From: a virus
Lineage: Duplodnaviria; Heunggongvirae; Uroviricota; Caudoviricetes
Length of the DNA stretch: 64,000 nucleotides
Virus record (IMG/VR): IMGVR_UViG_3300001199_000001
Coordinates: 5,404-69,403 of that record
Direction: 5' to 3' (one strand)
The notes beneath the pieces were generated by a model. That model did not search any database and was not told the origin of the DNA. It saw only the letters and a list, made by a program, of their open reading frames with translations. The position numbers were made by a program, and so were the translations under genes. Positions 48,374 to 63,750 of this stretch are shown piece by piece (position 1 is the stretch's first letter; every line of letters starts with the position of its first letter).

Positions 48374-48446
48374 GAAGGTGGAGGTTGAGGCACAGGTTTA
48401 ACATTCGGGGCCGCCTCGTAACTCCCGAAATTCCGTTGGAAAATCA

Positions 48447-50246: not shown

Positions 50247-50259
50247 AGTCACTTTAAGT
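50247..50259. repeat. AGTCACTTTAAGT motif copy 1
   Basis: immediately after portal stop codon. Confidence 0.7.
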
Positions 50260-50655
50260 TAGGATACTGTGATGCCGAAAACGACAAAGAAGGCAGCCGC
50301 AAAAGTCACCAAACCATCCAAGCGGATGCCCAAAACAAAGAAGTGCTGATGAAAAAGTTAACCCCGGTTTTCAACCCGAAACGACCCGCAGTGCTCTGCG
50401 CTAGCGTCAGTGTCATCCCCTATCTCATCGGCCTTCGTTTCGGACGAGTCGCACGTCCGAAGACCTAATCTCCCGCGCGACCTCCCCTGCGGTCTTTGCC
50501 GGGTATGAGCAGGAAAAACCGATGACGATGCGACGTTCTAACTTTTCCCTGTGTGTTGGGACTTAGTGAACGCGGGTGCGCGGGGAGGGCTAAAACCCTT
50601 CATGTAGCTCGTGAATCTTTATCAACCCGGACTTCAACTTTGAAAGGACTTCCTT

Positions 50656-50856
50656 ATGGAACCTGAAGCCCCCAAGCCTTGGTATGCCCAGCACGCCCTG
50701 GCCCTTATCACTGTCGTTGCCCTTGTGCTCGGCGGTATCGGTTACTCGATCTCTCCTGAAGACCAGCAGGTCTTGGCAGGCGCCGCTGGCGGCCTGACCG
50801 CTCTGGTCACGCAAATCGTCGGCGTCGTTAAAAACGTCCTCGCGTCTAAGAAGTAA
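50656..50856 (+). CDS. small membrane protein
   Basis: GAAAGGA RBS; two hydrophobic segments. Confidence 0.55.
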   Translation: MEPEAPKPWYAQHALALITVVALVLGGIGYSISPEDQQVLAGAAGGLTALVTQIVGVVKNVLASKK

Positions 50857-50910
50857 TAACAGGCGGACTCCCACCCGACAGGGTCCGCCCAACTATTGGA
50901 AATTTCCCCG

Positions 50911-51249
50911 ATGCCTGAGCGTCCACAACGCCGTCACCAGACTAGGCCCCAGGCCTTCACAATCCAGATTGTCCCACTCCCGGACGGTACCTTCGCGGCA
51001 TCCTCGCGTGAGTTATCCGGCGGATTCGTCAAAGGTGAGACCATTGCTGCCGTACTGACGGACATGGGGATCGTACTGGAAGGAAAAGCAGCCGCTCAAG
51101 CTACCAGAATCAGTGAACGCCGCGCCGCGCGCGCAAGCCGAAAATCGGGAGCAGACGCTACCGTGACGGTGGACGAAACGCCGCAGGTTGTCGTCCATTC
51201 GAAGAACCCGAAAAACCCTAAGGCCGGTCCCCCCGACCCTGTAAATTAA
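50911..51249 (+). CDS. HicB-like (UPF0150/RNase H-like fold) domain protein with basic tail
   Basis: FTIQIVPLPDGTFAASSRELSGGFVKGETIAAVLTDMGIVLE matches HicB yt..i..e.dG.y.a.vPelpGc.tqGdT.eEal.n. Confidence 0.55.
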   Translation: MPERPQRRHQTRPQAFTIQIVPLPDGTFAASSRELSGGFVKGETIAAVLTDMGIVLEGKAAAQATRISERRAARASRKSGADATVTVDETPQVVVHSKNPKNPKAGPPDPVN

Positions 51250-51257
51250 GGATTCTA

Positions 51258-52034
51258 ATGACCACCCTTAGGCGTTACGCGGACCATGCTGATTGGCCTA
51301 TAGCAGACTACCGTTGCACCTACCCCGGCCGATTTATGCCAAACGGCGGTGGTTCGATCATTCTCGGTGATCTCGATAGCCGGGGACGACATTATGCCGC
51401 TGCCGGTGGCCAGTATATCGAAGTCGATTTATCTAGGACGATTTTGTCATTAACCGACGCCGTGGGACTAGCGGATTTTATCCGCGATCTCACGCTTCAA
51501 ATGGGCAACATCTATCCGTCTATCGAACTCTATAGCGGTAATTTTTACGATTTCCGGAACATCGAGGATAATGAGATCGACATCGAGGATGTCGCTCATT
51601 CGCTCTCGATGCAGTGTCGGTTTGGCGGCCACTGTTCGGAGTTCTATTCGATTGCCGAGCACTCGGTCAGGGCATCGTTCATCGATCCCGATCATGACGC
51701 CTTTGACAAACTTATGCACGACGCCGCCGAGAGTGTGGCGGTTGATTTGCCTACTCCGTTCAAACGTCTCCTGCGGGATTACACCCGAATTCTAGAGCGC
51801 ATCGAGGCAAACTTCGCAGATGTCTTTGGCCACCGGCACCCGCTCCCTGAGTCAGTAAAACATGCAGACCTGACCATGCTCGCGACGGAGAAGCGCGATC
51901 TTAAGAAGACGAACAATCAGTGGGGAATGCTCGAAGGCGTGCCGACCCTGCCCGACATCATCCAGCCGTGGACTCAGAAGCAAGCGAAACAAGCCTTTTT
52001 GGATCGCTACGAGCAACTGAAACACACGGCGTAA
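51258..52034 (+). CDS. HD-domain phosphohydrolase
   Basis: VAHSLSMQCRFGGHC..FYSIAEHS...LMHDAAE...DLPTP. Confidence 0.65.
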   Translation: MTTLRRYADHADWPIADYRCTYPGRFMPNGGGSIILGDLDSRGRHYAAAGGQYIEVDLSRTILSLTDAVGLADFIRDLTLQMGNIYPSIELYSGNFYDFRNIEDNEIDIEDVAHSLSMQCRFGGHCSEFYSIAEHSVRASFIDPDHDAFDKLMHDAAESVAVDLPTPFKRLLRDYTRILERIEANFADVFGHRHPLPESVKHADLTMLATEKRDLKKTNNQWGMLEGVPTLPDIIQPWTQKQAKQAFLDRYEQLKHTA

Positions 52035-52048
52035 CAAGAGAGAAAATT

Positions 52049-52240
52049 ATGAGTGAACTGTTTTTGATTGGCTTTGATGCAGGCTCCGAGAATCGGCTCA
52101 AGGAACGCATCATTCGCATGGGTGGTGAAGTCCATCACTTTGAAGTCCGGTCGGCGACCATGAAGGTCACCGGCATCACCCGGCGCGATCTCGCGTCACT
52201 GCCGGGTGTCCGTTACGTCCAGAACGATGGGCAACGCTGA
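52049..52240 (+). CDS. hypothetical protein
   Basis: start MSELFLIGFD. Confidence 0.45.
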   Translation: MSELFLIGFDAGSENRLKERIIRMGGEVHHFEVRSATMKVTGITRRDLASLPGVRYVQNDGQR

Positions 52241-52647
52241 TGTCTAAGACCAAGGAAGATTGCAAAGTGAAGTTCGAACAGAACATCAACTTCAAGGGCT
52301 TTAGGGCCGATCCTGTGTTCGATAACACACGGACGCTGGAGGCTTGTGCGACGAAGTTCAACGCACAGGAACTCGCCAAGGCCTGGGCTCAGCCTGTACC
52401 TACTTACGATTATCGTAACATCAATATCGTCGTGAATGTAACCGCAGCCACGGCAAGTCTTGAGCAGATGAAGATCGCCTTTGCAAAAACCGCTGATTTT
52501 GCCAAAGCCAATCGCATTAAGGCAGCCGAAGCTTTGTTGGCAGATAGGGCAAAAGCGACTTTTTACGCGAAAGAGGGAAAATCCACTCCCGAGTTATCGA
52601 TGTTCGATAAAGCCCGCGCGACGCTTAAAAACAAGCACCGCTCATAA
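52240..52647 (+). CDS. hypothetical protein
   Basis: 135 aa ORF. Confidence 0.55.
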   Translation: MSKTKEDCKVKFEQNINFKGFRADPVFDNTRTLEACATKFNAQELAKAWAQPVPTYDYRNINIVVNVTAATASLEQMKIAFAKTADFAKANRIKAAEALLADRAKATFYAKEGKSTPELSMFDKARATLKNKHRS

Positions 52648-52656
52648 AAATAAAAG

Positions 52657-52691
52657 TCCCGGACCGCCTTGGGTTTTAACGGTCCGGGACC
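52657..52691 (+). terminator. perfect 11-bp stem hairpin (possible terminator without U-tract)
   Basis: GTCCCGGACCG-ccttgggttttaa-CGGTCCGGGAC. Confidence 0.45.
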
Positions 52692-52743
52692 CTCAAGAAG
52701 CAGTGGCTGGCAACCCTTTCACCGTCCACTGTCAACACATTAT

Positions 52744-53206
52744 CATGGCTGTCATCAGACGCAAGCGTAAACGGAAGAAGACGGCTATCGCAGTTCGCTT
52801 CTCCCATCGGACACATCCCGCGAAGATGTACAAGGCGCCGCCCGGTGTTTGTAGCTGGTGTGCGAGCGACATCTTGACCCTCGAAGGCAAGATCAACGCG
52901 AACAAGAAGTTCTGCGGACGCATCTGCGAAGATTCCTATAAAATCCACACTGATTCAAAGGCTTGGCGGAAAGAGGTCTGGCAGCGTGATCGCGGGTTCT
53001 GCCGCGAATGTGGCAAGAAACATCCACTCGACGGTAAGGAGTGGGAAGCTGATCACATCCAACCTTTGTTCATTTCCTGCGGCGATTGGAACTTCTGGTC
53101 TCCTGAGAATGGCGCGGTCTTGTGTAAGTCACCTTGTCATAAGATTAAGACCGAAGCTGATCGTCAGAAGTATTTAACTCCAAGACCAGTAAAACGCCGT
53201 CGTTGA
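52744..53206 (+). CDS. HNH endonuclease (second)
   Basis: CRECGKKH...EADHIQP...NGAVLCKSCH..K. Confidence 0.75.
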
Positions 53207-53428
53207 AGAAGAAATTTTCCAGTAGTCAACACCTTGTTTGTGCGAATTCTTGACAAACCAATTGGTTTGGTGTAGAAGGCATGCAAGCTGCAATAACAAA
53301 GAAACAAATTGCAGTGTCCCGACAAGACGACCTTACGCCCAATACCGACGTGGGTGGGTCTCTTTCTCGTCCGCGACGGGTCGTCGCCCAGCACTGGGGT
53401 CCAGTGTTTCCCTCTGAGAAAGTATACA

Positions 53429-54220
53429 ATGCCTGTTTTGACTTTTGATGCTCTTGAAGATGTGCCGGAAGGCCTTCGAGATTTTGCGAAAGACCATGGT
53501 GACGGCAAAATCACCGTGAACGTTGTTCCAGAAACGAAGCTTAGCGAGTTCCGGGATAACAACATCAACGTCTCCAAGGAGCGCGACCAGCTTCGGGAAG
53601 CCGTTGACAGACTGAAGAACATCGTGGGTGAAGACCCCGAAGCGTTCGAAAAGGATTTGGCGGAACTCCGCGTGACCCGAGATCGGGTGGCTGCCGGGGA
53701 ACTGCGTGAAAGTCGGGCTCTGGAAGAAGCCATCGGCAAGCGTACTGAAGAGATGCGCAAGAAGTTTGAAGAAGAGCTTCAAGGCCGTGGTCGCGAACTA
53801 GGTGCTTGGAAGGATAAATATGGAACACTGGACCGGCGCTACCGCGACGAAAAAGTGATCCAAGCGGTGAAGGATGCGGCTACGTCCCCGGACTCTGGGG
53901 TGCAGCACAAGGCCATCAGCGATGTCGCCAAACGGGCTCTCGAAGTCTTCAAGGTGATGGACGATGGACGCATCATTCCGATGAACGGTGACGTGCCGAT
54001 CTACGGAACCAACGGGGTTGACCCGATGACTCCGAACGAATGGCTCGCCAAGCTGAAGGACGAAGCTCCGTACTTCTTCATGGGCACCCAAGGCGGTGGC
54101 GCTGGCGGTGATCCCGGTAAAAAGACGGGTCTCGGCATGTCGTATGCCGATCTTTCGAAGCTCTCGGCAACTGAAAAGTTGGCGCTGGCGAACAAAGAAG
54201 GCCGTCCTTTCGGCAAGTAA
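53429..54220 (+). CDS. putative scaffolding protein
   Basis: coiled-coil, acidic, immediately upstream of capsid gene; start MPVLTFDAL. Confidence 0.5.
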   Translation: MPVLTFDALEDVPEGLRDFAKDHGDGKITVNVVPETKLSEFRDNNINVSKERDQLREAVDRLKNIVGEDPEAFEKDLAELRVTRDRVAAGELRESRALEEAIGKRTEEMRKKFEEELQGRGRELGAWKDKYGTLDRRYRDEKVIQAVKDAATSPDSGVQHKAISDVAKRALEVFKVMDDGRIIPMNGDVPIYGTNGVDPMTPNEWLAKLKDEAPYFFMGTQGGGAGGDPGKKTGLGMSYADLSKLSATEKLALANKEGRPFGK

Positions 54221-54223
54221 CTG

Positions 54224-54236
54224 AGTCACTTTAAGT
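54224..54236. repeat. AGTCACTTTAAGT motif copy 2
   Basis: 3 nt after scaffold stop; part of palindrome GTCACTTtaagtgaAGTGAC. Confidence 0.7.
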
Positions 54237-54387
54237 GAAGTGACTGGACTAAAAATTTGTGGGGTTGGATTCGTCCAACCCCGCTCCAAACAACCCTTGG
54301 GGACGCTGGACGCCCGAGGGGGAAGCCCGAGGCGGGGGGCCTGCCTCCTCAACCAGTCTAGCGTAACCCTTGAGGAGAATTCAGCTT

Positions 54388-55323
54388 ATGGCTGCTCTCA
54401 CACTGTTGCAAGCTGCCGAACAGGCGATGGGCAACGAAGAAATCAAGCGCGCCGCGATCATCGAACTGTTCGCTCAGCCTGACCTCCTTCGTGTCCTCCC
54501 GTTCATGGATATTCCGGGCAGCGCCTATTCGTATATCCAAGAAGGTCAGCTTCCGGGCGTCGCCTTCCGTGGTTACAACGAGTCTTACTCGACCACCACG
54601 GGCGTCGTTAACCCGCAAGTTGAACGCCTCCGCATCGCGGGCGGCGATCTGGATGTGGACAAGGCCCTCCTGAAGACGCACGGCGCGGGCGTTCGCTCGA
54701 CGCAAGAGCGTATGAAGGTTAAGGCCCTCTCGCTCTACATCTCGGGCAAGATGATCAACGGCGACTCCGACGTTGATCCGCGTGAATTCGACGGCCTCCG
54801 TAAGCGCATCGTCGGCGATCAGAAGATCGCTGCTGGTTCGACCGGTGGTGGCGACGCGCTGTCCCTGTCGGTTCTGGATGAAGCTATCGACGCTGTCGAC
54901 GGCGCCACCCACCTGATCATGTCCAAGAAGATGCGTAACCGCCTCTCGGCTGCTGCGCGTAACACCGGCACGACCGGCTTCATGGTCTGGGACAAGGACG
55001 AGTTCGGCAACCGTGTCGCTTTCTACAACGACATTCCGATCCTCGTGACTGACTACGACGACACCAACACTCAGGTCATCGCTTTCAACGAAGCATGCCC
55101 CGGTGGCGGTTCGGCGGTCGGTACGTCGATCTACGTCGTCAACATGAGCGACACCGGCGTTTGCGGTCTGCAAAACGGCGTCATGGAAGTCACCGACCTT
55201 GGTGAAGTCCAAGACAAGCCGGTTCTGCGCACCCGCGTTGAGTGGCTGATCGGTCTGGCCGTGCTCCACGGTCGTGCCGTTGCTCGTATCTGGGGCATCA
55301 AGGACGCGGCGGTGACGGCTTAA
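54388..55323 (+). CDS. putative major capsid protein
   Basis: GAGGAG RBS; 311 aa following scaffold; strong terminator two genes downstream. Confidence 0.55.
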   Translation: MAALTLLQAAEQAMGNEEIKRAAIIELFAQPDLLRVLPFMDIPGSAYSYIQEGQLPGVAFRGYNESYSTTTGVVNPQVERLRIAGGDLDVDKALLKTHGAGVRSTQERMKVKALSLYISGKMINGDSDVDPREFDGLRKRIVGDQKIAAGSTGGGDALSLSVLDEAIDAVDGATHLIMSKKMRNRLSAAARNTGTTGFMVWDKDEFGNRVAFYNDIPILVTDYDDTNTQVIAFNEACPGGGSAVGTSIYVVNMSDTGVCGLQNGVMEVTDLGEVQDKPVLRTRVEWLIGLAVLHGRAVARIWGIKDAAVTA

Positions 55324-55375
55324 TTGCCGTCACTACCCTGCCTTCGTTAGGAACCTTTTTTAGGAAACCCAGAAA

Positions 55376-55816
55376 ATGGAAAGCACTGTTAAGCACCAGT
55401 ACGACGGCGATCTCGCCCTTCGTGCGCCCGGTTTGGCCGCTCTTACGGCTGACACCGCTCTGACCAAGATCGACCTGCACCGCCTGACGGCGGGACGTGG
55501 CGATCTGGAGAACCGCTATGGTCTCGGTTCGTTCGACGTTGTCGTTGTTGTCGCTTCTATGGACACCACGACCGGCGACGAAGCCTACGCCCTGGAATTC
55601 ACGACCTATGACTCCGCTGGAGCCAACCCGGTCGTCCAGGCGTCGCACACCGTGACCTCGGCTGATGTCGCCAAGACGCGCGTCTTCACGTTCCACCCGG
55701 AATCGCTGAAGCTTGCGGACGCCGACGCTGCCAAGTTCTCGATCAACGTGAATGTCGGCGGCACGACCCCGATCATCTCGTTGTATGCCTTTGCGGCCCC
55801 CCACTCCCACGCGTAA
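55376..55816 (+). CDS. putative head-associated/decoration protein
   Basis: 146 aa following capsid gene. Confidence 0.4.
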   Translation: MESTVKHQYDGDLALRAPGLAALTADTALTKIDLHRLTAGRGDLENRYGLGSFDVVVVVASMDTTTGDEAYALEFTTYDSAGANPVVQASHTVTSADVAKTRVFTFHPESLKLADADAAKFSINVNVGGTTPIISLYAFAAPHSHA

Positions 55817-55859
55817 TGGCTGACGCTTCGGCGTCATCCTAGTGGATGTGGTAATAAGG

Positions 55860-55890
55860 AAGGCCCCGCTGAAAAGCGGGGCCTTTTCTT
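55860..55890 (+). terminator. rho-independent terminator
   Basis: GGCCCCGC-tgaaaa-GCGGGGCC followed by TTTTCTT. Confidence 0.8.
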
Positions 55891-55904
55891 ATGCGTAAGA
55901 GGTG

Positions 55905-55951
55905 TGAAGCCGGGAGGGGTCTTAACGGGGGGGCGACATCCTCCCGGCTTC
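55905..55951. repeat. long inverted repeat hairpin
   Basis: GAAGCCGGGAGG...CCTCCCGGCTTC 12-bp stem. Confidence 0.5.
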
Positions 55952-56043
55952 AGTCTTCGGGCGGGCTGTTCGTGGGGGGCGAGCCTCAGCACCGACGACA
56001 TGTAGAACTTATTGAATTATACGTTTGTGGTCAACACAAAAAT

Positions 56044-56676
56044 TCAATCCGGTCCATTCAGTTTGACGACTTCCACCCCGTCGACATAGCCAATTGCGGC
56101 GTGGGCCTTAGCGATCACGTCCTCCAAGAGAACGGGGGCGTAACCGACCTGTTCCGCAGAGACGCAAACATATCTCGGATCGGGAACCCTCATGATCGAG
56201 GGCGGCGTCGCGAGGCCGTCGTAGATATCCTCGTCCACAGTGATCTGGTTGGTGTGCAGGTGGCCATGGATGTTAACCACGAACCGACCCAGGCACTGTT
56301 CATGGATTGGAATATGGCTCAGGATAGCGCGCGGGCCACCTTCTCCGTCTACGACCTTATAGCCGCGCACGTCCTCGAAGTATTTCAGATACTCCTTAGC
56401 GCCGAAGATATCGTGGTTGCCGGAAATCAGCACCAGTTTTCCATTCAGGCGCTCTAAGATTGGCAGAGCCCGCTTGTTTATAGCGACATCGCCGACAAGG
56501 TAGACACGGTCGTGCTCACCCGTGACTGCGTTCCACGCGGCCACCATCGCTTCATCCATTTCCTCGGGCGTGTCCCACGGGCGGACGGGAGAGCCGTCGC
56601 TCCGCATGAACTGTGTGATTCCCTTGTGGCCCCAGTGGGTGTCACCGATCACTCGCGCTCTGTCTTTTTTAGCCAT
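56044..56676 (-). CDS. calcineurin-like metallophosphoesterase
   Basis: VIGDTHWGH...LVGD...GNHD...IHGHLH motifs; opposite strand inside late region. Confidence 0.75.
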   Translation of the reverse strand: MAKKDRARVIGDTHWGHKGITQFMRSDGSPVRPWDTPEEMDEAMVAAWNAVTGEHDRVYLVGDVAINKRALPILERLNGKLVLISGNHDIFGAKEYLKYFEDVRGYKVVDGEGGPRAILSHIPIHEQCLGRFVVNIHGHLHTNQITVDEDIYDGLATPPSIMRVPDPRYVCVSAEQVGYAPVLLEDVIAKAHAAIGYVDGVEVVKLNGPD

Positions 56677-56750
56677 GAGACAGTTTCATCGATTTTTAGG
56701 AACTTGTCAACACCCGGCGTCAACTGCACTGACAAGCCGGGTCAGAATCA

Positions 56751-56775
56751 TTGACATCTTAACTTATTGTGACAC
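56751..56775 (+). promoter_or_regulatory. conserved late-region element TTGACA-N6-CTTATTGTGACAC (copy 2)
   Basis: 23 nt before GGAGG RBS of gene at 56798. Confidence 0.45.
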
Positions 56776-56797
56776 ACTCCCCTCATTGGAGGCGCGT

Positions 56798-57157
56798 ATG
56801 GCTGATCTGAACTACACCGTTTATGACAATGAAGACCTTCATCGTGACTTTCAACTGAAGGAAGGCGCGTCGGCTGAGGCCGCGACTGCGACTGATATCA
56901 CCGACAGCACGATTAGCGCTGAAATCCGGGACGAGACAAATACGCTCATCCTCCGGATGACATCGACAGACAACACTACGCTCAAGATTTTGGACGCAGA
57001 AGAAGGACGCTTCGGGTTTCGTATTGATCGCGAGCTTCTGCCGACGAACAAGAAGCTGTTGAAGTACGATGTGCTGATTACCGACGCAGATGGGTACACG
57101 CGTCGTCTCTGGGGCGGCAAGATTACTGTCAAGATAGGCGTCACGCAGGACACCTAA
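56798..57157 (+). CDS. hypothetical structural protein
   Basis: GGAGGCG RBS; 119 aa. Confidence 0.55.
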   Translation: MADLNYTVYDNEDLHRDFQLKEGASAEAATATDITDSTISAEIRDETNTLILRMTSTDNTTLKILDAEEGRFGFRIDRELLPTNKKLLKYDVLITDADGYTRRLWGGKITVKIGVTQDT

Positions 57158-57813: not shown

Positions 57814-57831
57814 GTAAAGTCACCCGAATTC

Positions 57832-57857
57832 TTGACAAGCTCAACTTAATATGACAC
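57832..57857 (+). promoter_or_regulatory. conserved late-region element TTGACA-N7-CTTAATATGACAC (copy 3)
   Basis: upstream of 57922 gene. Confidence 0.45.
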
Positions 57858-57921
57858 AAGGAAGGCTCAATAGCCCGCTCTGGGCTCGCGATCCCGAACC
57901 GCACCCAAACAGGATTTTCCC

Positions 57922-58389
57922 ATGGCATCTGCTAAGCGCATGGTCACAGTTTACGACAAGAATGGTAAGTCGTATGTTGTTGATCACCTGAACGCTCTCG
58001 ATATGACGGCGTCACTAGGCTTCACCTATCAACCGGGCCGCAAGTTTGATTATCACGAGCCGCTGCCTTACGCTGGTAAGAACGTCGAGCTTCTGAAGAG
58101 AGACCCGCAGGGCAAGTCCCTGGCGCAGGGCATTCTTGACGGTATCCGGGACACTGAAGAAGCTGTCGTCGCTGACGACACCGATGAAGTGTTTGACGCC
58201 GGTAAGGACGTTGCACCTGAACCGGAATCGCTGGTCATTCCTTCGGTTGAAGTTGAAGTCAAGCCAGACACCACGCTTGTGATCCCGACAACGGACGAAG
58301 TCGAAGAAGTCGAGACACCTGCCTTTGAAATTCCGGTCATTGAAGCGGATGCCGAAGTTAAGCCGCGTAGCCGCACGAAGAAGGCCTAA
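57922..58389 (+). CDS. hypothetical acidic protein
   Basis: 155 aa ORF. Confidence 0.55.
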   Translation: MASAKRMVTVYDKNGKSYVVDHLNALDMTASLGFTYQPGRKFDYHEPLPYAGKNVELLKRDPQGKSLAQGILDGIRDTEEAVVADDTDEVFDAGKDVAPEPESLVIPSVEVEVKPDTTLVIPTTDEVEEVETPAFEIPVIEADAEVKPRSRTKKA

Positions 58390-58394
58390 TATCG

Positions 58395-58796
58395 ATGCCG
58401 GTCCTTTCATACGAAGTTCATGAAAATATCCTGAATTGGATGAAGGGCTCGGCGTTCCCCTCGGCTCCGGCGTCTCTGCGCTTGGCCTTGCTTACGGCAG
58501 AGCCTAATCCGGATGGTACCGGTATAGCGGAGCCCAACGGTGGTCACGGCTATGGTCGCCAAGTCGTTGCGTTCGGTGCGATCACGACGGACAACGGTAT
58601 CTCAACGATGAAGAATTCCGCTCCGGTGGTGTTCGGTCCAGCTTCTACTTCGGGCTGGGCGACCGCCACCCATGTCGGCCTCTTCTCCGTTGGGGGTGAC
58701 CTTCTTGCTTACGGTCCTCTGCCTGCGCAGCGCACGGCGCCGCTGGGCGATACCATTTCTTTCGGTGCTGAAGCCGTACAGATTCGTCTAAAGTGA
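58395..58796 (+). CDS. hypothetical structural protein (related to 59536..59937)
   Basis: shared LALLT..P..DGTG...G.....G...LFS pattern. Confidence 0.5.
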   Translation: MPVLSYEVHENILNWMKGSAFPSAPASLRLALLTAEPNPDGTGIAEPNGGHGYGRQVVAFGAITTDNGISTMKNSAPVVFGPASTSGWATATHVGLFSVGGDLLAYGPLPAQRTAPLGDTISFGAEAVQIRLK

Positions 58797-58808
58797 GTCA
58801 CTTTAAGT
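58796..58808. repeat. AGTCACTTTAAGT motif copy 3 (palindrome GTCACtttaaGTGAC)
   Basis: overlaps stop codon of 58395..58796. Confidence 0.7.
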
Positions 58809-59517
58809 GACACAAGATGCGAGCATTAGTTGGTCGGCGGGGGCATCATTCGTCGCCACCTCCAACAAGACTCACATTGCGCGGGTGGGCTGGTCAGCGG
58901 AGGCGGCATTTAGCGCCGCCCCTAATCAGACTTACGCCGCGTCCGTGATTTTAATTGCTGAAGGCGGCATCGAACCAAACGATGCCTATCTCGGCAAGCC
59001 TACCAGTATCGAACTACTGATGGAGACTGATGGCGCGTCCACCGTCTTCCCCGGCAGCTTCGCTTATATACAGGACGCGTCGACCTACGAGGTCGTCATG
59101 TTCTTCGAGATGGAAGGGAACGCTCACGGATCGTTGGTCGTGCCGTATGTGCAGGACACCGATGGTGGGAAACCTCCGAGACTTCTTGGACAACCTGTAG
59201 AGGGTCAGCCCGAAGCAGCCGAGAAGTTGTTCCGCTTTCACGCGGCTGATTCAGCTTACCGAATTTCGGAAGCTCGCAGTCGTGGGTGGGCGGACAGTCC
59301 GGCGACGGCGGATGCAGTCTTCACGCTTGAAAGAAAGCGCGGGATTACATCCACCACCGTAGCCACGGTCACTTTTTATGCAGGCGCCAGCGCCCCGCAG
59401 ATCGAAGTGATTGATGCGAGTGTGGTGGTCGGTGACCGTCTCATCTTCCACGCCCCGACTGTGCAAGACATCACACTTGCCAATCTGGTTGTGACTTTTG
59501 TTCTGATCTTCGCCTAA
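58807..59517 (+). CDS. hypothetical structural protein (GTG start)
   Basis: 236 aa ORF. Confidence 0.5.
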   Translation: MTQDASISWSAGASFVATSNKTHIARVGWSAEAAFSAAPNQTYAASVILIAEGGIEPNDAYLGKPTSIELLMETDGASTVFPGSFAYIQDASTYEVVMFFEMEGNAHGSLVVPYVQDTDGGKPPRLLGQPVEGQPEAAEKLFRFHAADSAYRISEARSRGWADSPATADAVFTLERKRGITSTTVATVTFYAGASAPQIEVIDASVVVGDRLIFHAPTVQDITLANLVVTFVLIFA

Positions 59518-59535
59518 TCATAAGGAGACTTTCCC

Positions 59536-59937
59536 ATGGCGAACGCAATCTACCCCAAGGCCAAGGAGCAATTCCTCCAAGGCGGAATCAACATGTCATC
59601 GGACACCATCAAGGTGGCCCTGATCGACACCGGCACCTACACCTATTCGGCAGCCCATGACTTCTGGGATGACGCATCGGCTGGTGTTATCGGGACCCCG
59701 CAAACGCTGGGCACCAAGACCTTCACCAGCGGCGTTTTCGACGCCGCCGACTCGACCTTCACCTCGGTTTCGGGTGCGACGGTTGAAGCGCTGATCATCT
59801 ACAAGGACACCGGCACCCCGGCTACTTCGAACCTGATCGCGTACATCGACTCGGGTACGGGCCTGCCGGTTACGCCCAACGGCGGTAACATCAATGTGGT
59901 CTGGGACTCTGGCGCCAATAAAATCTTCGCGCTCTGA
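59536..59937 (+). CDS. hypothetical structural protein
   Basis: GGAGAC RBS-like; 133 aa. Confidence 0.55.
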   Translation: MANAIYPKAKEQFLQGGINMSSDTIKVALIDTGTYTYSAAHDFWDDASAGVIGTPQTLGTKTFTSGVFDAADSTFTSVSGATVEALIIYKDTGTPATSNLIAYIDSGTGLPVTPNGGNINVVWDSGANKIFAL

Positions 59938-59943
59938 TTTCTG

Positions 59944-59956
59944 AGTCATTTTAAGT
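59944..59956. repeat. AGTCATTTTAAGT motif copy 4 (variant)
   Basis: 6 nt after stop of 59536..59937. Confidence 0.65.
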
Positions 59957-59997
59957 GTAAGCTTTGGCGAAGGAGATCGGTTTTCGCCGGTCTCCTA

Positions 59998-60010
59998 AGT
60001 CATTTTAGGG
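59998..60010. repeat. AGTCATTTTAGGG motif copy 5 (degenerate)
   Basis: 5 nt before ATG 60016. Confidence 0.5.
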
Positions 60011-60015
60011 TAACA

Positions 60016-60363
60016 ATGGCTAGGCTTCTTTTCCGCGCACACGCGACTGTCTCGAACACGCCCGGTACCGGCAGTTTTACGCTGTCCACCGCAGCGTTCA
60101 CCGACACCCTTGCGTGGTCCACGGCGGGCGCAGAAGACGGCCATCAATACGCCTACCTCGCTATCGAGGGTACAAGCTGGGAGGCAGGCGAGGGAACCTA
60201 CACCAGCGGAACCCTGACGCGAGATAAAATCCTCAAGTCCTCGAACAGCGACAACGCCGTCACCTTCACGTCGGCTGTCACCGTCGCGTCCACGCCTGGA
60301 CCCACTCATCTTCAAAGCCGTGGTCGTATCCTGGCTTTGTCAAACCGCATTCCGCTTTTCTAA
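60016..60363 (+). CDS. fiber-like N-terminal module protein (paralog of 63751 ORF start)
   Basis: NTPGTGSFTLSTAAF...GTLTRDKILKSSNSDNA vs TGTGTITMGSAVSGF...TTLTRGVRKSNAALSSN. Confidence 0.5.
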   Translation: MARLLFRAHATVSNTPGTGSFTLSTAAFTDTLAWSTAGAEDGHQYAYLAIEGTSWEAGEGTYTSGTLTRDKILKSSNSDNAVTFTSAVTVASTPGPTHLQSRGRILALSNRIPLF

Positions 60364-60375
60364 GGGGCTGATCAC

Positions 60376-60795
60376 ATGGCTGCGAACGTCGAGCCTATTT
60401 ATACTAAAACGCCCCATATTGAATGGATCAGCTATATCGTAACCGCCAACACCACGGCGGACCTTACTGCTGGCACGAGCTATCTGACCTTCACCGCCAC
60501 GACGAACGGGTCGTTCTTGTCCCGCCTGCGTTTCAGACCAACGCCTGCGGGCAACACTACGGCGACTGTCGCCCGTATTTGGATCAACAACGGCGCGACC
60601 ACCGGCACGGCAGCGAACAACATTCTATTCGACGAAATCACCCTACCTGCCATCACTGCATCTTCTACAGCCGCTACGGCTGGATATGACGTACCGGTCA
60701 ACTTTCCGCTGCCTAACGGTTATCGAGTTTATGTGACTATCCATACAGGGTCAGCAAACGGCTGGGCTTGCTCATCTATCGGGGGCGACTACTAA
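60376..60795 (+). CDS. hypothetical structural protein
   Basis: 139 aa ORF. Confidence 0.5.
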   Translation: MAANVEPIYTKTPHIEWISYIVTANTTADLTAGTSYLTFTATTNGSFLSRLRFRPTPAGNTTATVARIWINNGATTGTAANNILFDEITLPAITASSTAATAGYDVPVNFPLPNGYRVYVTIHTGSANGWACSSIGGDY

Positions 60796-60986
60796 TGCAG
60801 GCCGTCTTCAATAAAATCGAATTCGAGTACGGGAAACAAGGCGAGGCCATTCAGGTCGTTGTCGATGGCATAGAGCAAGGCATCTTCTCACTCGATGGCC
60901 AAGCCATCACATTAGAAGGTGAATACGGCTACAAATTCACTGAACAGGACATCGAAGCGCCAGCATGGTTTGAATTCGGGGAATAG
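60795..60986 (+). CDS. hypothetical protein
   Basis: TAATG coupling. Confidence 0.45.
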   Translation: MQAVFNKIEFEYGKQGEAIQVVVDGIEQGIFSLDGQAITLEGEYGYKFTEQDIEAPAWFEFGE

Positions 60987-60989
60987 CCA

Positions 60990-61886
60990 ATGGATTTCCA
61001 TGGCTTTCCTCGTTTACCTGAATTTGATCGATTCAAGTTATTCACGCCGTCTGATGCTGGTTTGGCTCAGGCGGTTCTTTGGCACGTCCCTTCGACGGCT
61101 GTAGGGCTCCTTATTTCAGTTGTAGGTGGTGGCGGCGGCGGCGGCGGCGGCAATTCCGGATCAACGGGCACTACTCGGGGCGGCGGCGGCGGCGGTAGTT
61201 CATCTTCTTTGGCAACCTGGATCGGTCCGGCCAATCGCCTCCCGTCTATGCTTTATTTCTACATTGGAAATGGTGGTTTAGGCGGCGCAGCAGGCGTCAA
61301 CGGCACGGCGGGTGGACAAACGAGAGTCCACGTAGGTACAGGTACAACAGGGGCTTCGTGTCTACTGGCAGTCAATGGGGGAAATGGCGGCACGGCGGGA
61401 AGCGCTGCTGGCGGTACTGGCGGGACGGCTCCGACGGCCATAGCAATGACTTCAAGCTCCTTTTCAGCGACCGGCTTGTGGCAAGCCCTGACCGGTTTAG
61501 CCGGGCAGGCAGGGCGAACGGACAGCAATTTCACTGCCGACCCCATCAACAGCACGCCCTTGTGCAGAGGCTGGGGTGGTGGCGGATGTAACGCGACTGA
61601 TGTTGCAGGTACCGGAGGCGGCTCAACACAGATGTCTTTAGGGGGTATTGGAATCCCCCCCATAAATGGCGGCGCCATAAATGGTGGAGCAGGTACGAGT
61701 GGGTTACTTATCCAAAGACCGTTAGCAAGTTTAGGTGGCGCTGGTGGTGGTGGGCACGGTACGGGAACGGGCGGAGCAGGCGGCGGCGGCGGGCCAGGGA
61801 CAGGCGGCGGTGGTGGCGGCGCTGGTGTCACAGGCGGAGCAGGCGGTAACGGCGGTTCTGGTTTTGTCCTAGTTAACTGGTGGTGA
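60990..61886 (+). CDS. glycine-rich protein, paralog 1 (C-terminal ...GSGFVLVNWW)
   Basis: 298 aa, more than 40% Gly; conserved N-terminal block and WW terminus shared with next two genes. Confidence 0.65.
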   Translation: MDFHGFPRLPEFDRFKLFTPSDAGLAQAVLWHVPSTAVGLLISVVGGGGGGGGGNSGSTGTTRGGGGGGSSSSLATWIGPANRLPSMLYFYIGNGGLGGAAGVNGTAGGQTRVHVGTGTTGASCLLAVNGGNGGTAGSAAGGTGGTAPTAIAMTSSSFSATGLWQALTGLAGQAGRTDSNFTADPINSTPLCRGWGGGGCNATDVAGTGGGSTQMSLGGIGIPPINGGAINGGAGTSGLLIQRPLASLGGAGGGGHGTGTGGAGGGGGPGTGGGGGGAGVTGGAGGNGGSGFVLVNWW

Positions 61887-61887
61887 A

Positions 61888-62724
61888 ATGCTGGACTTTG
61901 GACCTCATCCTATCCCCAAAAACGTAGCCGTCTTCGCACGCGCCGCCGCTGCCACCGATTTCATGACTTTTATACGCCCAAGGGGAGCCAATACCCTAGG
62001 TATTTTCCTGCTATCTGCTGGAGGCAATGGTGGCGCGGGAGCATCGGGCGCCGCTGCGTCAAGTAGAATCGGAGGCGGAGGCGGAGGCTCTGGCTCGTAT
62101 CTTAACTGGCTGGGACCTATCAGCGTTCTTCCAGAGGTTCTGTATATTTACACAGGGCTTGAAAACAACACGTCAATTTCTATAGAGCCTACAACAATCG
62201 CCGCTGTAAAGCTTTTAGGTGCGCCGAACGGTGCAAATGGGAACGCAGGCGGAGCGGGAGGAGGAAGCGGGGGCGCTGGCAGTACACCAAACATCGCCAG
62301 CCACAGTCCTCTATCAATTCATGGGATGTTCACCTCAGTGGCAGGTGTGGCGGGCGGAAATGGCGGCGCGGCAGGGTCTGCCGGTACGTCCACGACGGTT
62401 TTGAATAATCACATCCTTGCTGGAGGCAATGGAGGATCGGGCGTGACATCAACCGATGTCCCCGGTGTCAACAGCCTGTCTAACGTCAATGAAATTATAC
62501 CATCTATATTGAGCACGAACGCAGCAAGCGCGCCTGCGGGATTTTGGTCGTGGCGTCCGTATTGCGGATCGGGCGGAGGCGGCGGAGGGTCCGTGAACTC
62601 CGGAACGGGCGGGGCCGGTGGAGCGGGGGCTTTTGGCTGCGGCGGCGGGGGCGGCGGAGCGGGCACAACCGGTGGCGCAGGTGGGGTGGGAGGCAGCGGT
62701 CTAGTTGTTATAAGCTGGTGGTAA
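61888..62724 (+). CDS. glycine-rich protein, paralog 2 (C-terminal ...GSGLVVISWW)
   Basis: 278 aa. Confidence 0.65.
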   Translation: MLDFGPHPIPKNVAVFARAAAATDFMTFIRPRGANTLGIFLLSAGGNGGAGASGAAASSRIGGGGGGSGSYLNWLGPISVLPEVLYIYTGLENNTSISIEPTTIAAVKLLGAPNGANGNAGGAGGGSGGAGSTPNIASHSPLSIHGMFTSVAGVAGGNGGAAGSAGTSTTVLNNHILAGGNGGSGVTSTDVPGVNSLSNVNEIIPSILSTNAASAPAGFWSWRPYCGSGGGGGGSVNSGTGGAGGAGAFGCGGGGGGAGTTGGAGGVGGSGLVVISWW

Positions 62725-62727
62725 GTT

Positions 62728-63606
62728 ATGGATGATTTTGCTTTTTTCACCCGCCCTGCCGCAATCGACAGGACGACTATCTTCGTTTCAGCGACACCAC
62801 TCAGTACAGCGGCGAACGACTGGCAAAAATGGCATCGTCCGAGAGCCGCTACGATGATTCAAGCCTTGATCATTGGCGCTGGAGGTGGGGGAGCCAACGG
62901 GTCTTCAGGAGCGTCTGGGACGAACAGGGCTGGCGGCGGAGGCGGCGGCTCCGGTGCTGTCATGAAGGCGCTTTTTCCCGCCTCCTTATGCCCGGAAGTG
63001 TTGTACGTCCGTCCCGGCAAAGGCGGCGATGCCGCCACATCCGGTACCTTCTCCTTCGTCGCTTTTGCCCCGTCAAACGCTCAAAATGCTTATCTCTTGC
63101 TAGAAGCATCAGGCGGTTCCGGCGCGACTACCGTCACGGGAGGCACGCAAGGAGCGGGGGACTCTCTAACTACCAAACCTCTTACCGCATGGGGTTTTTT
63201 GACTAGCTCAATCGGCCAAGCTGGAACGGCGGGCGGGACTTCGACAGGGGCTGCTGGCACCGCAGCAGTGGTGCTTAACTCCCATTTCTTAACGGGAGGA
63301 ACGGGAGGTGGGAGCGCTGGTGCATCTTCTGTGAGTTATGCAGGCGGGGCGATTACAGGCAAATCCGGTTATTTCCCGGACTTGGCCGGTGGTGTGGCTG
63401 GTGGAGGAGCCGGATCACATGGAATTTGGCGCCCGGAAATTTGGGCGGGGACAGGCGGAACGGGCGGCGGAAGCTCGTTCGACGGGGTTGGCGGCGCGGG
63501 CGGCAACGGCGCTTATGGGTGTGGCGGCGGTGGCGGCGGGGCTGGTGTCACAGGCGGCGCGGGAGGTAAAGGCGGAGACGCGTTGATCATGATCACGTGG
63601 TGGTGA
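62728..63606 (+). CDS. glycine-rich protein, paralog 3 (C-terminal ...GGDALIMITWW)
   Basis: 292 aa. Confidence 0.65.
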   Translation: MDDFAFFTRPAAIDRTTIFVSATPLSTAANDWQKWHRPRAATMIQALIIGAGGGGANGSSGASGTNRAGGGGGGSGAVMKALFPASLCPEVLYVRPGKGGDAATSGTFSFVAFAPSNAQNAYLLLEASGGSGATTVTGGTQGAGDSLTTKPLTAWGFLTSSIGQAGTAGGTSTGAAGTAAVVLNSHFLTGGTGGGSAGASSVSYAGGAITGKSGYFPDLAGGVAGGGAGSHGIWRPEIWAGTGGTGGGSSFDGVGGAGGNGAYGCGGGGGGAGVTGGAGGKGGDALIMITWW

Positions 63607-63665
63607 ATCCTTGACTTTTAGCCGATTTGAGGCAAGGTATTTCTTTGTTAAGCTTAGTGGCTGGC

Positions 63666-63678
63666 AGTCACTTTAAGT
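63666..63678. repeat. AGTCACTTTAAGT motif copy 6
   Basis: 60 nt after stop of third Gly-rich gene. Confidence 0.7.
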
Positions 63679-63750
63679 TTCCCGTCAATTAACCTTCGAC
63701 GCACGCCGTCGCTCTATTAGGGCGGTGGCGTTTTCTTTTAGGGCGGACCC

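What the first reader, a model, noticed from the sequence alone, without database searches (positions are those of the whole stretch)
50247..63678. Conserved 13-16 nt element (T)GAGTCAYTTTAAGTG after six late genes
AGTCACTTTAAGT occurs at 50247, 54224, 58796 and 63666. Variants AGTCATTTTAAGT (59944) and AGTCATTTTAGGG (59998) also occur. All copies lie 0-60 nt after stop codons of portal, scaffold and fiber-module genes. Several are embedded in palindromes (GTCACtttaaGTGAC). The motif is absent from the early and middle blocks. Candidate roles: late promoter for a phage-specific RNA polymerase or sigma factor, RNA processing/terminator hairpin, or binding site of a late regulator.
Basis: seen in the sequence. 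Interest (0 to 1): 0.65.

Follow-up and report, generated by a model that had tools for sequence, protein, structure and literature searches.

The report
Oriented GTCAY boundary motif, late genes
A 13-16 base signal, always pointing the same way as the genes, sits at the junctions between late (virion) genes of a phiCbK-like jumbo phage; it is real and conserved in relatives, where it forms a small stem-loop, but sequence alone cannot say whether it starts transcripts or acts on the RNA.

Summary
AGTCAYTTTARG occurs six times in the window, all on the + strand and all non-coding (0.02 expected by chance). The window is part of a 70.9-kb contig of a phiCbK-like phage. The contig flanks hold three more copies, on the minus strand and co-oriented with minus-strand late genes.

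The motif is under selection. In a relative with 92% capsid identity it survives as a 17/17-identical island in flanks that are about 55% identical.

In more distant relatives, including phiCbK, the same positions carry a 24-nt stem-loop, GTCAY-N14-RTGAC, with compensatory changes. It abuts the scaffold and tail-tube stop codons and precedes the capsid leader. The window motif is the 5' arm plus loop of this element. Most window copies keep it only as a linear sequence.

The mechanism is not resolved. My best single reading (about 0.35) is a -35-less late promoter core that starts transcription at about motif position 11-12. The main rival (about 0.3) is a sense-strand RNA element for stability, processing or start-codon masking. 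Lesser rivals are a dsDNA operator or roadblock, and an antitermination loading site.

Ordinary sigma70-like promoters also lie in the late block, and several carry the motif inside their spacers. No RNA polymerase or sigma gene was found in the 71 kb available. I found no description of this element in the papers I could search.

The parts
50247..50259 (+). Motif copy 1, AGTCACTTTAAGT. It abuts the portal stop TAG and is followed by TAGGA (SD) and the GTG/ATG of a 26-aa ORF.
   Evidence: The orthologous copy in L143 is a 17/17-identical island, GTCACTTTAAGTTAGGA.
54224..54245 (+). Motif copy 2 with its 3' arm, AGTCACTTT-AAGT-GAAGTGACT. It lies 3 nt after the scaffold stop and upstream of the MCP leader.
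   Evidence: 9-bp stem, -11.3 kcal/mol, z = -2.7. Orthologous hairpins occur in L143, L141, L144, L145, L097, L100 and phiCbK.
58796..58811 (+). Motif copy 3, a perfect palindrome GTCACTTTAAGTGAC. The TGA stop of the Gp80-like head protein overlaps its 5' end. The GTG start of the 236-aa gene occupies motif positions 12-14.
   Evidence: Relative L149 has TAGTCAC-N14-ATGAC at the orthologous junction.
59944..59956 (+). Motif copy 4 (T variant, AGTCATTTTAAGT). It lies 6 nt after a stop and 14 nt upstream of a GC hairpin.
59998..60010 (+). Motif copy 5 (AGTCATTTTAGGG). It lies 1 nt after the GC hairpin and 5 nt before ATG 60016. GUCAU can pair with AUGGC of the start region.
63666..63678 (+). Motif copy 6. 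It lies 59 nt after a stop, about 27 nt downstream of a sigma70-like promoter and 24 nt upstream of an intrinsic terminator.
54261..54282 (+). GC-rich tetraloop hairpin between motif copy 2 and the MCP leader. It has no U-tract on the + strand.
   Evidence: -20.4 kcal/mol, z = -5.1. L143 has an unrelated hairpin of similar shape in its place.
59971..59996 (+). GC-rich tetraloop hairpin flanked by motif copies 4 and 5.
   Evidence: -23.1 kcal/mol, z = -5.9.
63703..63741 (+). Intrinsic-terminator-like hairpin (13-bp stem) with a TTTTCTTTT tail, downstream of motif copy 6 and 10 nt upstream of ATG 63751.
48348..48378 (+). Sigma70-like promoter upstream of portal (CTTGACA-N14-TGACAG). Its spacer holds an inverted motif-like copy (bottom strand TCTGTCACATTAAGTG).
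56749..56777 (+). Sigma70-like promoter in the divergent intergenic region next to the minus-strand metallophosphatase gene. It holds an inverted motif-like copy (TGTGTCACAATAAGTT).
   Evidence: The orthologous element is in L143.
57831..57861 (+). Sigma70-like promoter upstream of gene 57922. It holds an inverted motif-like copy (TGTGTCATATTAAGTT).
45602..45616 (-). Weak motif-like site (GGAGTCACTTTAAAGG) inside a minus-strand gene. It is probably not a member of the family.
   Evidence: 15.9 bits.

Best explanation
The motif is the window phage's version of a cis element shared by phiCbK-like phages. The conserved core is (A)GTCAY followed by three variable bases and an A.

I think it most likely works as a compact late promoter that needs no -35 element. 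In this reading the host RNA polymerase, redirected by a phage-encoded factor not present in the available 71 kb, recognises GTCAY at about -10 to -6. The AT-rich TTTA(A) then melts, and transcription starts at about motif position 11-12.

This would give each downstream late gene its own short-leader or leaderless mRNA. In longer read-through transcripts from the upstream sigma70-like promoters, the RNA copy of the motif can pair with a downstream RUGAY segment. That segment is often the next start codon, or the 3' arm of the family hairpin. Such pairing would mask the start or mark the cistron boundary, as described for T4 late promoters embedded in hairpins (gene e, I-TevI; from my own knowledge).

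Shown here: the motif, its orientation, its positions, its conservation, and the hairpin covariation in relatives.

Inferred: that it is a promoter, the start-site position, the identity of the polymerase or factor, and the role of the pairing.
For: 1. All nine strong copies are co-oriented with their genes and intergenic, and none lies in the ~45-kb early/middle region.
2. It is a single conserved block with nothing conserved at -35. This is the usual anatomy of phage-specific late promoters.
3. Copy -4874 lies 22 nt after an A5-hairpin-T9 terminator-like structure. It directly precedes an HNH endonuclease gene that has no SD and whose ATG occupies motif positions 12-14.
4. GTG 58807 occupies the same positions 12-14. 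Three copies (50247, -4012, L143c) are followed at once by SD plus ATG, so a start site inside the motif would serve the adjacent gene.
5. The motif is under purifying selection as a linear sequence. At the portal junction the window and L143 share 17/17 bases in ~55%-identical flanks, and neither has a 3' arm there.
6. In imperfect hairpins the 5' arm always keeps GTCAY while the 3' arm drifts (GTGAT, GTGGC, ATGGC). The A at position 9 never flips, unlike its neighbours. The 5' strand therefore carries sequence-specific information beyond pairing.
7. Inverted motif copies lie in 4 of 6 cases in divergent regions, where a leftward promoter is needed.
8. From memory only, as a lead: the invariant TCAY-N3-A pattern matches the core of T7-group promoters (TCAC-TAT-A|G).
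Against: 1. Relatives carry a 24-nt stem-loop with compensatory changes at the orthologous sites (96% of cells paired, 6 of 10 pairs covary, 0 of 500 shuffles reach the score). A DNA promoter does not need pairing.
2. In phiCbK three of the four hairpins sit 0-7 nt after stop codons (scaffold, gp075, tail tube). This placement looks like a 3'-end element.
3. Four copies (54224, 59944, 63666, L143a) lie 14-24 nt upstream of strong hairpins, one of them a canonical terminator. A promoter there would fire straight into a terminator.
4. Ordinary sigma70-like promoters already head the late operons, so extra promoters are not required.
5. No sigma factor, RNA polymerase or GcrA gene was found in the 70.9-kb contig. 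PMC3556154 reports no phage RNA polymerase for phiCbK.
6. Copy -3354 lies in the spacer of a sigma70-like promoter, so it is not independent evidence for promoter function.
7. There are no transcript data.
Confidence: 0.35

Rival explanations
1. Sense-strand RNA element. The transcribed motif is the 5' arm and loop of a small stem-loop, or the linear binding or cleavage site of a phage or host RNA-binding factor. It sits at cistron boundaries in late polycistronic mRNAs. It could set segmental mRNA stability or processing, acting as a 3' cap for the upstream cistron and a 5' cap for the capsid mRNA. It could also mask the next start codon until the upstream ribosome terminates (translational coupling).
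For: - A 24-nt GTCAY-N14-RTGAC hairpin with covarying interior occurs in six phages. Their predicted folds have z-scores of -2.7 to -9.3.
- All imperfect pairs are G.U on the sense strand.
- Stop codons directly abut GTCAY in four phages even where the intergenic region is 130-190 nt long.
- The 3' partner is the downstream start codon in 58796, 50247, 59998, -4874 and L149. In the four window-phage cases the Y of GTCAY covaries with the first base of that start codon (C with GUG, U with AUG, 4 of 4).
- The same linear motif is paired in three different registers (54224, 58796/L143a, L143b). This suggests selection to sequester it.
- It is associated with stable tetraloop hairpins.
Against: - Most window copies have no 3' arm, yet they are conserved as a 13-17-nt linear sequence.
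- Motif-like sequence is conserved in promoter spacers that would not be transcribed.
- Copy -4874 follows a terminator-like structure.
- A 5-10-bp AU-rich stem is a weak barrier to exonucleases.
- No cognate RNA-binding protein or nuclease was identified.
- There is no Rfam match.
Confidence: 0.3
2. Double-stranded DNA site for a phage regulator, analogous to the operator plus 'stoperator' sites of the mycobacteriophage L5 repressor. The protein would bind the asymmetric site inside sigma70-like late promoters and at gene junctions. There it would repress initiation or block elongation in an orientation-dependent way, and so time late expression.
For: - Motif-like sequence lies in the spacers of sigma70-like promoters at 48348, 56749 and 57831 (inverted) and at -3354 and in CcrSC (forward). 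It is conserved between the window and L143.
- The site is 13-16 bp and asymmetric, has one orientation, and overlaps stop codons. This matches L5 stoperators as I remember them (from my own knowledge).
- Two dyads, GTCAY-N14-RTGAC, have non-pairing interiors (L141 19476, L149 853), which suggests fixed half-site geometry.
- A candidate binder exists: a 208-aa protein with three tandem HTH units and weak Mor/sigma-r4 hits.
Against: - Interior palindromy with compensatory changes is not needed for protein half-sites.
- Half-site spacing varies in the window (N5, N10, or no second half-site).
- Strict co-orientation is not expected for most regulators.
- The phage family is lytic.
- The XRE factor TgrL of phiCbK binds a CAACC-type motif, not this one.
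Confidence: 0.12
3. Loading site for a processive antitermination factor, in the manner of lambda nut, RfaH-ops or Q-qut. Polymerase coming from the sigma70-like promoters would acquire a factor at the motif, from the RNA or from the non-template strand. It would then read through the hairpins that follow.
For: - Four copies lie 14-24 nt upstream of strong hairpins. One lies in a leader of the form promoter (63610), motif (63666), terminator (63703), gene (63751).
- The motif is orientation-specific and lies in transcribed intergenic regions.
- The mini-hairpin GUCAC-UUUAA-GUGAC has the dimensions of a boxB, and CUUUAA is the core of boxA (from memory, as a lead only).
Against: - Five copies have no hairpin downstream, and several lie just after a hairpin.
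- The boxA-like CUUUAA is absent from the relatives' versions, for example phiCbK GTCACGAAAC.
- No N-, Q- or NusG-like gene was seen.
Confidence: 0.08
4. Translation-initiation enhancer or start-associated sequence, comparable to the cluster K mycobacteriophage SAS or the T7 gene 10 'epsilon' ACTTTAAG-NN-GGAG.
For: - Seven of 13 copies end 12 nt or less from the next start codon.
- Three read ACTTTAAG-TT-AGGA-N7-8-ATG. This resembles the T7 gene 10 leader as I remember it (a lead only).
Against: - Six copies lie 34-180 nt from any annotated start.
- The relatives' versions lack the ACTTTAAG string.
- It does not explain the hairpins at stop codons.
Confidence: 0.07

Closest known systems
T4 late promoters embedded in stem-loops (gene e, soc, I-TevI) and other -35-less phage late promoters
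   Same: A single short conserved block without a -35 element, sitting in late-gene intergenic regions and co-oriented with the genes. The start codon of the next gene can pair with the promoter-proximal sequence, so only transcripts that start inside the element would be translatable.
   Different: The sequence is unrelated to TATAAATA. No gp55/gp33-like factor was found. Many relatives' hairpins are not near a start codon. No transcript ends are known. The comparison rests on my own knowledge.
T7-group single-subunit RNA polymerase promoters
   Same: The invariant TCAY-N3-A core followed by a purine matches T7, T3 and SP6 (TCAC-TAT-A|G). It is compact and lies in intergenic regions right after stop codons.
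   Different: There is no conserved -17 to -12 region. No polymerase gene exists in the 70.9 kb, and none is reported for the family (PMC3556154). The similarity is 9 of 13 bases and is recalled, not tested.
Mycobacteriophage L5 stoperators
   Same: A 13-bp-scale asymmetric site with one orientation relative to transcription. It lies in short intergenic spaces overlapping stop codons, and is also present within promoters.
   Different: L5 is temperate and its sites span both genome arms. Here the sites are late-only, no repressor is known, and the relatives' versions are covarying hairpins.
Intercistronic stabiliser hairpins and REP-type tagged palindromes (for example the Rhodobacter puf operon; GTAG/CGTC-tagged REPs, PMC3733652)
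   Same: Small palindromes with a conserved tag at one end. They lie just downstream of stop codons of highly expressed genes, and a role in segmental mRNA stability is plausible.
   Different: The copy number is low (4 in the 102 kb of phiCbK scanned, 9 in the 70.9-kb contig). The stems are short and AU-rich. Most window copies are half-elements without a stem. No RAYT-like gene is present.
GcrA/CcrM-dependent promoters of Caulobacter (PMC4647560)
   Same: Six of nine copies contain GAGTC, which is a GANTC site. TGAGTC matches 6 of the 7 positions of YGAKTCK. phiCbK-like phages encode GcrA homologues (PMC3556154).
   Different: GANTC is missing from 3 of 9 copies, from one L143 copy and from all phiCbK copies (AAGTCAC). 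The last K of the consensus is A here. No GcrA gene lies in the contig. The -20 placement needs a start site that would fall downstream of two of the start codons.

Membership tests
Sigma70-type (-35/-10) promoter | -35 TTGACA-like hexamer 16-18 bp upstream of a -10 hexamer with A-11 and T-7 | tested here: not met
   Nothing is conserved from -50 to -3 of the motif. The promoter scan finds none at the six sites. Separate elements at 48348, 53249, 56749, 57831 and 63610 do meet it.
T7-like single-subunit RNAP promoter | A phage-encoded single-subunit RNA polymerase in the genome | tested here: inconclusive
   No ORF exceeds 600 aa and there are no RNA_pol Pfam hits in the 70.9-kb contig. Only about a quarter of the 278.9-kb genome is visible. 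The phiCbK paper reports none.
T7-like single-subunit RNAP promoter | About 19-23 bp conserved from -17 to +6 | tested here: not met
   Only about 16 bp are conserved, and there is no AT-rich -17 to -13 block.
Intrinsic terminator | Stable GC-rich stem followed directly by a U-tract | tested here: not met
   The motif alone has a stem of at most 9 bp, AU-rich and without a U-tract. Only the separate hairpin at 63703 qualifies.
Conserved RNA stem-loop (structured cis-RNA) | Base pairing maintained by compensatory changes across homologues | tested here: met
   This holds for the relatives' 24-nt version. 96% of cells are paired, 6 of 10 pairs change on both sides, and 0 of 500 shuffles reach the score. 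In the window only 54224 and 58796 fold. The test cannot tell RNA from DNA hairpins.
L5-type stoperator | Asymmetric site, single orientation relative to transcription, intergenic, also at a promoter | tested here: met
L5-type stoperator | A cognate repressor that binds the site | not testable with these tools
   The only candidate is the 3xHTH protein at 16691-17317.
GcrA/CcrM-dependent promoter | GANTC (ideally YGAKTCK) in every member | tested here: not met
   6 of 9 window-phage copies and 2 of 3 L143 copies have it, and none of the 4 phiCbK copies does.
CtrA box | TTAA-N7-TTAA | tested here: not met
   No second TTAA lies at N7 in any copy (direct reading).
XRE (TgrL/RtrA) operator of phiCbK and Caulobacter | Match to the published position weight matrix | tested here: not met
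   The matrix reads CAACC-like with a distal G, not GTCAY (PMC10688885 S2 Table).
Lambda nut (boxA + boxB) | boxA consensus followed by a conserved boxB hairpin | tested here: not met
   Only CUUUAA is shared with boxA (recalled). The downstream hairpins share no sequence. The relatives lack CUUUAA.
Any Rfam family | Covariance-model match | tested here: not met
   There are no hits at gathering score in the window. At E<=1 in 48-64 kb the only hit is unrelated, at 55857-55894.

The most novel reading that the evidence does not exclude
phiCbK-like jumbo phages (Dolichocephalovirinae and relatives) share an undescribed sense-strand 'GUCAY' element. It is a 24-nt stem-loop in phiCbK and a mostly linear 13-16-mer in this phage. 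A dedicated, still unknown phage factor would read it to define the ends or the translatability of late mRNAs. That would make it a new phage cis-regulatory RNA/protein pair, not a conventional promoter, terminator or operator.
Probability: 0.25. Interest if true: 0.7.

Novelty: new variant of a known kind. Interest (0 to 1): 0.55.

Why it matters
phiCbK is a classic model phage of Caulobacter. I found no description of how its roughly 60-kb late operon is subdivided and timed in the papers I could search.

This analysis gives a short, family-wide element that marks the boundaries of the most abundant virion genes (scaffold, capsid, tail tube, portal). That makes the question directly testable in phiCbK on C. 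crescentus, where an infection RNA-seq time course already exists (PMC10688885).

If the element is a promoter, it points to an unknown phage factor that redirects host RNA polymerase. If it is an RNA element, it would be a new example of how a phage sets the ratios of its late proteins after transcription.

Tried and rejected
- **Exact-motif scan of IMG/VR.** GAGTCACTTTAAGT gave 96 matching stretches; the 80 listed are all single hits, so these are chance matches.
- **MCP-based searches for relatives.** JGI metagenomes gave no closer relative. GTDB genomes gave nothing.
- **Reaching the 278,859-bp JGI contig with the identical MCP.** The look-up of encoding contigs collapses it onto the 70.9-kb Logan contig. 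The rest of the genome, and any sigma, RNAP or GcrA gene in it, stayed out of reach.
- **Homologues of the 236-aa protein after copy 58796.** None were found, so its GTG start could not be checked.
- **GcrA/CcrM-dependent promoter.** Attractive at first, because of GAGTC, GANTC depletion and GcrA homologues in the family. Rejected as obligatory because GANTC is absent from several copies and from all phiCbK copies.
- **CtrA box, sigma54, ECF -35/-10 and MerR-type spacing.** None fits by direct reading.
- **TgrL (XRE) operator.** The published matrix differs.
- **boxA/nut and T7 epsilon similarities.** Each is limited to 6-8 bases of the window lineage and absent from relatives. I keep them only as leads.
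- **tblastn with T7 RNAP against the phage collection.** Uninformative: 2738 hits, and the summary cannot be filtered to this family.
- **phiCbK per-gene expression.** The phage sheet of S3 Table is cut off in the held copy.
- **Programmed stop-codon read-through.** There are 74 open codons after the portal TAG, and stop 59937 is in frame with ATG 60016. The idea is not consistent across copies.
- **Dimeric-operator reading of the palindromes.** Half-site spacing varies (N5, N10, N14, N23).

Full report
**1. The observation**

The pattern AGTCAYTTTARG matches at exactly the six reported positions: 50247, 54224, 58796, 59944, 59998 and 63666. All are on the + strand. Shuffles give 0.02 matches on average, and none of 100 reached 6. 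Allowing two mismatches adds only weak sites.

Each copy lies between genes:
- 50247 abuts the portal stop TAG.
- 54224 lies 3 nt after the scaffold stop.
- 58796 overlaps the TGA of a Gp80-like head protein, and the GTG of the next gene sits inside it.
- 59944 and 59998 flank a hairpin between two small structural genes.
- 63666 lies 59 nt after a stop and 24 nt before an intrinsic terminator.

The late block is 14% non-coding, and all six copies fall in that fraction.

**2. What the window is**

The capsid gene is about 78% identical at the DNA level to Caulobacter phages CcrSC and CcrBL9 and to Brevundimonas phage Bajun. Its protein is 76% identical to phiCbK MCP.

The window is part of Logan contig SRR2043728_3232, which is 70,922 bp. 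An identical MCP also sits on a 278,859-bp JGI contig that I could not read. I therefore saw about a quarter of the genome.

PHROG and Pfam scans identify portal, scaffold, MCP, head protein, fibre-like proteins and a minor tail protein in the + block at 48.4-64 kb. The minus-strand block at about 11-48 kb holds DHH phosphoesterase, MazG, kinases, MucR and similar genes.

**3. More copies, and orientation**

I rebuilt the whole contig and scanned it with a weight matrix. This gives nine sites above 17 bits. Six are the reported ones. Three lie left of the window on the minus strand, with minus-strand genes:
- -4012 reads TGAGTCACTTTAAGTTAGGATcgactATG. The TGA is the stop of a 203-aa gene, and the ATG starts a lipoprotein transglutaminase-like peptidase. 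phiCbK has the same kind of gene next to its portal.
- -3354 lies in a divergent intergenic region.
- -4874 lies 22 nt after an A5-hairpin-T9 structure, with a degenerate tandem copy in between. The ATG of an HNH endonuclease gene sits at its positions 12-14.

All nine copies point the same way as the flanking genes. The consensus is T-G-A-G-T-C-A-Y-T-T-T-A-A-G-T-K. Nothing is conserved further upstream.

**4. Conservation in close relatives**

L143 is a JGI metagenome contig whose MCP is 92% identical. It keeps the motif at orthologous junctions.
- After portal, GTCACTTTAAGTTAGGA is identical at 17 of 17 positions while the flanks are about 55% identical. It is again followed by a conserved 26-aa Lys-rich ORF.
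- Between scaffold and MCP, L143 has TGAGTCACTTTAAGTGAC (the TGA is the stop), then a GC hairpin of unrelated sequence, then cGAGTCACTTTAAGTCATTAAAGTG, then the leader.

The motif is therefore selected, and the intervening hairpin is selected for shape only.

**5. The family-wide form is a stem-loop**

In L141 and L144 (88% and 87% MCP identity), L145 (86%), L131, L100, L097 and phiCbK itself, the position just upstream of the MCP leader holds a palindrome. Its 5' arm starts (A/T)GTCAY. In most of them it is exactly GTCAY-N14-RTGAC, 24 nt long.

In the first 102 kb of phiCbK I found four such hairpins:
- one abutting the scaffold stop (31401);
- one just before the MCP leader (31541);
- one 5 nt after the gp075 stop (37482);
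- one 7 nt after the tail-tube stop (58715).

I also found one looser hairpin at 8680.

On ten hairpins from six phages, 96% of cells pair, six of ten pairs show changes on both sides, and no shuffle of 500 reaches the observed covariation score. G1, T2, C3, A4 and their partners are invariant. A9 is 90% conserved and never flips, although its neighbours do.

Every imperfect pair is G.U on the sense strand. In each case the 3' arm is the one that departs from consensus.

In the window, copy 54224 folds as a 9-bp stem with an AAGU loop, and 58796 as a 6-bp mini-hairpin. The other copies lack a 3' arm. In this lineage it is kept mostly as a linear sequence.

**6. Context that bears on mechanism**

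(a) Sigma70-like promoters of the form GAATyCTTGACA-N17-yAnAAG, with a TG at the extended -10 position, sit upstream of portal (48348), scaffold (53249), gene 56798 (56749), gene 57922 (57831) and after stop 63606 (63610). The same class occurs in L141, L143, L144, L145, L097, CcrSC and phiCbK.
- Three of the window's promoters carry an inverted motif-like sequence in their spacer (for example TGTGTCATATTAAGTT), conserved in L143.
- Copy -3354 and a CcrSC site carry it forward, 2 nt after the -35 hexamer.

(b) Strong tetraloop hairpins accompany the motif.
- Copies 54224, 59944, 63666 and L143a lie 14-24 nt upstream of one.
- Copies 59998, -4874, L143b, L141 and L144 lie 1-22 nt downstream of one.

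(c) In five junctions the segment able to pair with GUCAY contains the downstream start codon.
- These are 58796 GUGAC, 50247 GUGAU, 59998 AUGGC, -4874 AUGCC (4 of 5 pairs) and L149 AUGAC (4 of 5 pairs).
- In the four window-phage cases Y is C with GUG and U with AUG.

(d) The same linear motif is paired in three different registers.

**7. Weighing the readings**

A promoter reading explains several things:
- the linear conservation;
- the lack of a -35 element;
- the orientation and the late-only distribution;
- the copy that follows a terminator-like structure before an SD-less HNH gene;
- the start codons at positions 12-14;
- the SD that follows three copies at once, provided transcription starts at about position 11-12.

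It does not by itself explain the covarying stem-loops, the placement right after stop codons in long intergenic regions, or the copies that sit just before hairpins.

An RNA-element reading explains those features. It does not explain the conserved half-elements without a 3' arm, or the motif in promoter spacers.

A dsDNA-operator reading explains the spacer copies. It does not explain the covariation or the variable half-site spacing.

I rate these readings at about 0.35, 0.30 and 0.12. Antitermination loading and a translation enhancer trail at under 0.1 each.

The composite known from T4, a late promoter lying inside a hairpin that forms only in read-through RNA, covers the most observations. 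That is why I put the promoter first. This is inference, not demonstration.

**8. Candidate factors**

No sigma factor, RNA polymerase, GcrA, N/Q or NusG-like gene is visible in the 70.9 kb.

The only transcription-type candidate is a 208-aa protein at 16691-17317 (minus strand). It has three tandem HTH units and weak hits to Sigma70_r4_2 (4e-8), Mor, and PHROG families named 'late transcriptional activator'.

A MucR/Ros homologue lies at 34022-34423.

The GcrA/CcrM idea is weakened. GAGTC is present in 6 of 9 copies and GANTC is depleted in the contig (166 observed against 267 expected). But GANTC is missing from three strong copies, from one L143 copy and from all phiCbK copies.

**9. Known or new**

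Rfam has no match for the motif, the hairpins or the MCP leader. The phiCbK genome paper (PMC3556154) mentions no such element and no phage RNA polymerase. The infection transcriptome paper (PMC10688885) gives gene-level timing only. A full-text search found no description of it.

I file it as a new variant of a known kind: a phage lineage-specific late regulatory signal. There is a reasonable chance that it is an undescribed RNA/protein system.

Noticed in passing
window 54294-54350 (and up to ATG 54388): The MCP 5' leader is more conserved than the neighbouring coding DNA across window, L143, L141, L144, L145, L097, CcrSC and L100. It has two GC-rich hairpins (CCCUCGGGG...CCCGAGGGG and GAGGCGGGG..CCGCCUC) and a third stem just upstream of the start codon. 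There is no Rfam match.
   Followed up: partly
window 50269-50349: An uncalled 26-aa Lys-rich ORF (MMPKTTKKAAAKVTKPSKRMPKTKKC) follows portal directly, with a strong SD. It is conserved in L143 (MAKAGAKKAGSKKPAWSKKMGGGKKC). The next ~300 nt (50350-50655) have no called gene.
   Followed up: partly
window 48348-48378, 53249-53279, 56749-56777, 57831-57861, 63610-63639; leftward 48306-48263: A family of sigma70-like promoters, GAATyCTTGACA-N17-yAnAAG, with a TG at the extended -10 position. The class is shared with L141, L143, L144, L145, L097, CcrSC and phiCbK (GTGAATCTTGACA). These probably drive the late operons.
   Followed up: partly
window 20526-21602 (-), 28515-29630 (-), 20150-20533 (-), 34022-34423 (-), 17678-18034 (-), 18059-18256 (-): The phage encodes two HWE-type histidine kinases, a receiver-only response regulator, a MucR/Ros zinc-finger regulator (E = 6e-49) and ribosomal proteins L20 and L35. 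This is an unusual host-takeover set for an alphaproteobacterial host.
   Followed up: no
window 41637-41662: A perfect 26-nt palindrome, GTTTGTCATATGTGCATATGACAAAC, lies between two minus-strand genes. It contains GTCAT...ATGAC, so a GTCAY-type hairpin also exists outside the late block.
   Followed up: no
window 56044-56676 (-): A minus-strand metallophosphatase gene is embedded in the + strand structural block, with a divergent promoter region at 56677-56797. L143 has the same arrangement.
   Followed up: partly
whole 70.9-kb contig: GANTC, the CcrM site, is the most depleted pentamer of its composition class (166 observed against about 267 expected; GAGTC 30 against 73). This fits an alphaproteobacterial host.
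   Followed up: partly
window 50244-50468 and 59935-60018: The portal stop TAG is followed by 74 in-frame sense codons. Stop TGA 59935-59937 is in frame with ATG 60016, with no stop between them. This is probably chance and is not consistent across copies.
   Followed up: partly
L127 177-554 (minus strand; window coordinates about -5262 to -4885): A free-standing HNH endonuclease gene follows a terminator-like hairpin and has no SD. Its ATG is part of the motif.
   Followed up: partly
L141 12495-13838 (-) and 14152-15023: The relative L141 encodes a TROVE/Ro60-like protein with a vWA domain. It sits next to an 870-nt non-coding stretch with a minus-strand tRNA-Gly and tRNA-like sequences, which may be a Ro/Y-RNA-like module.
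   Followed up: no
window 16691-17317 (-): A 208-aa protein made of three tandem HTH units, with weak hits to Sigma70_r4_2, Mor and HTH_7. It is the only candidate transcription factor in the contig besides MucR.
   Followed up: partly
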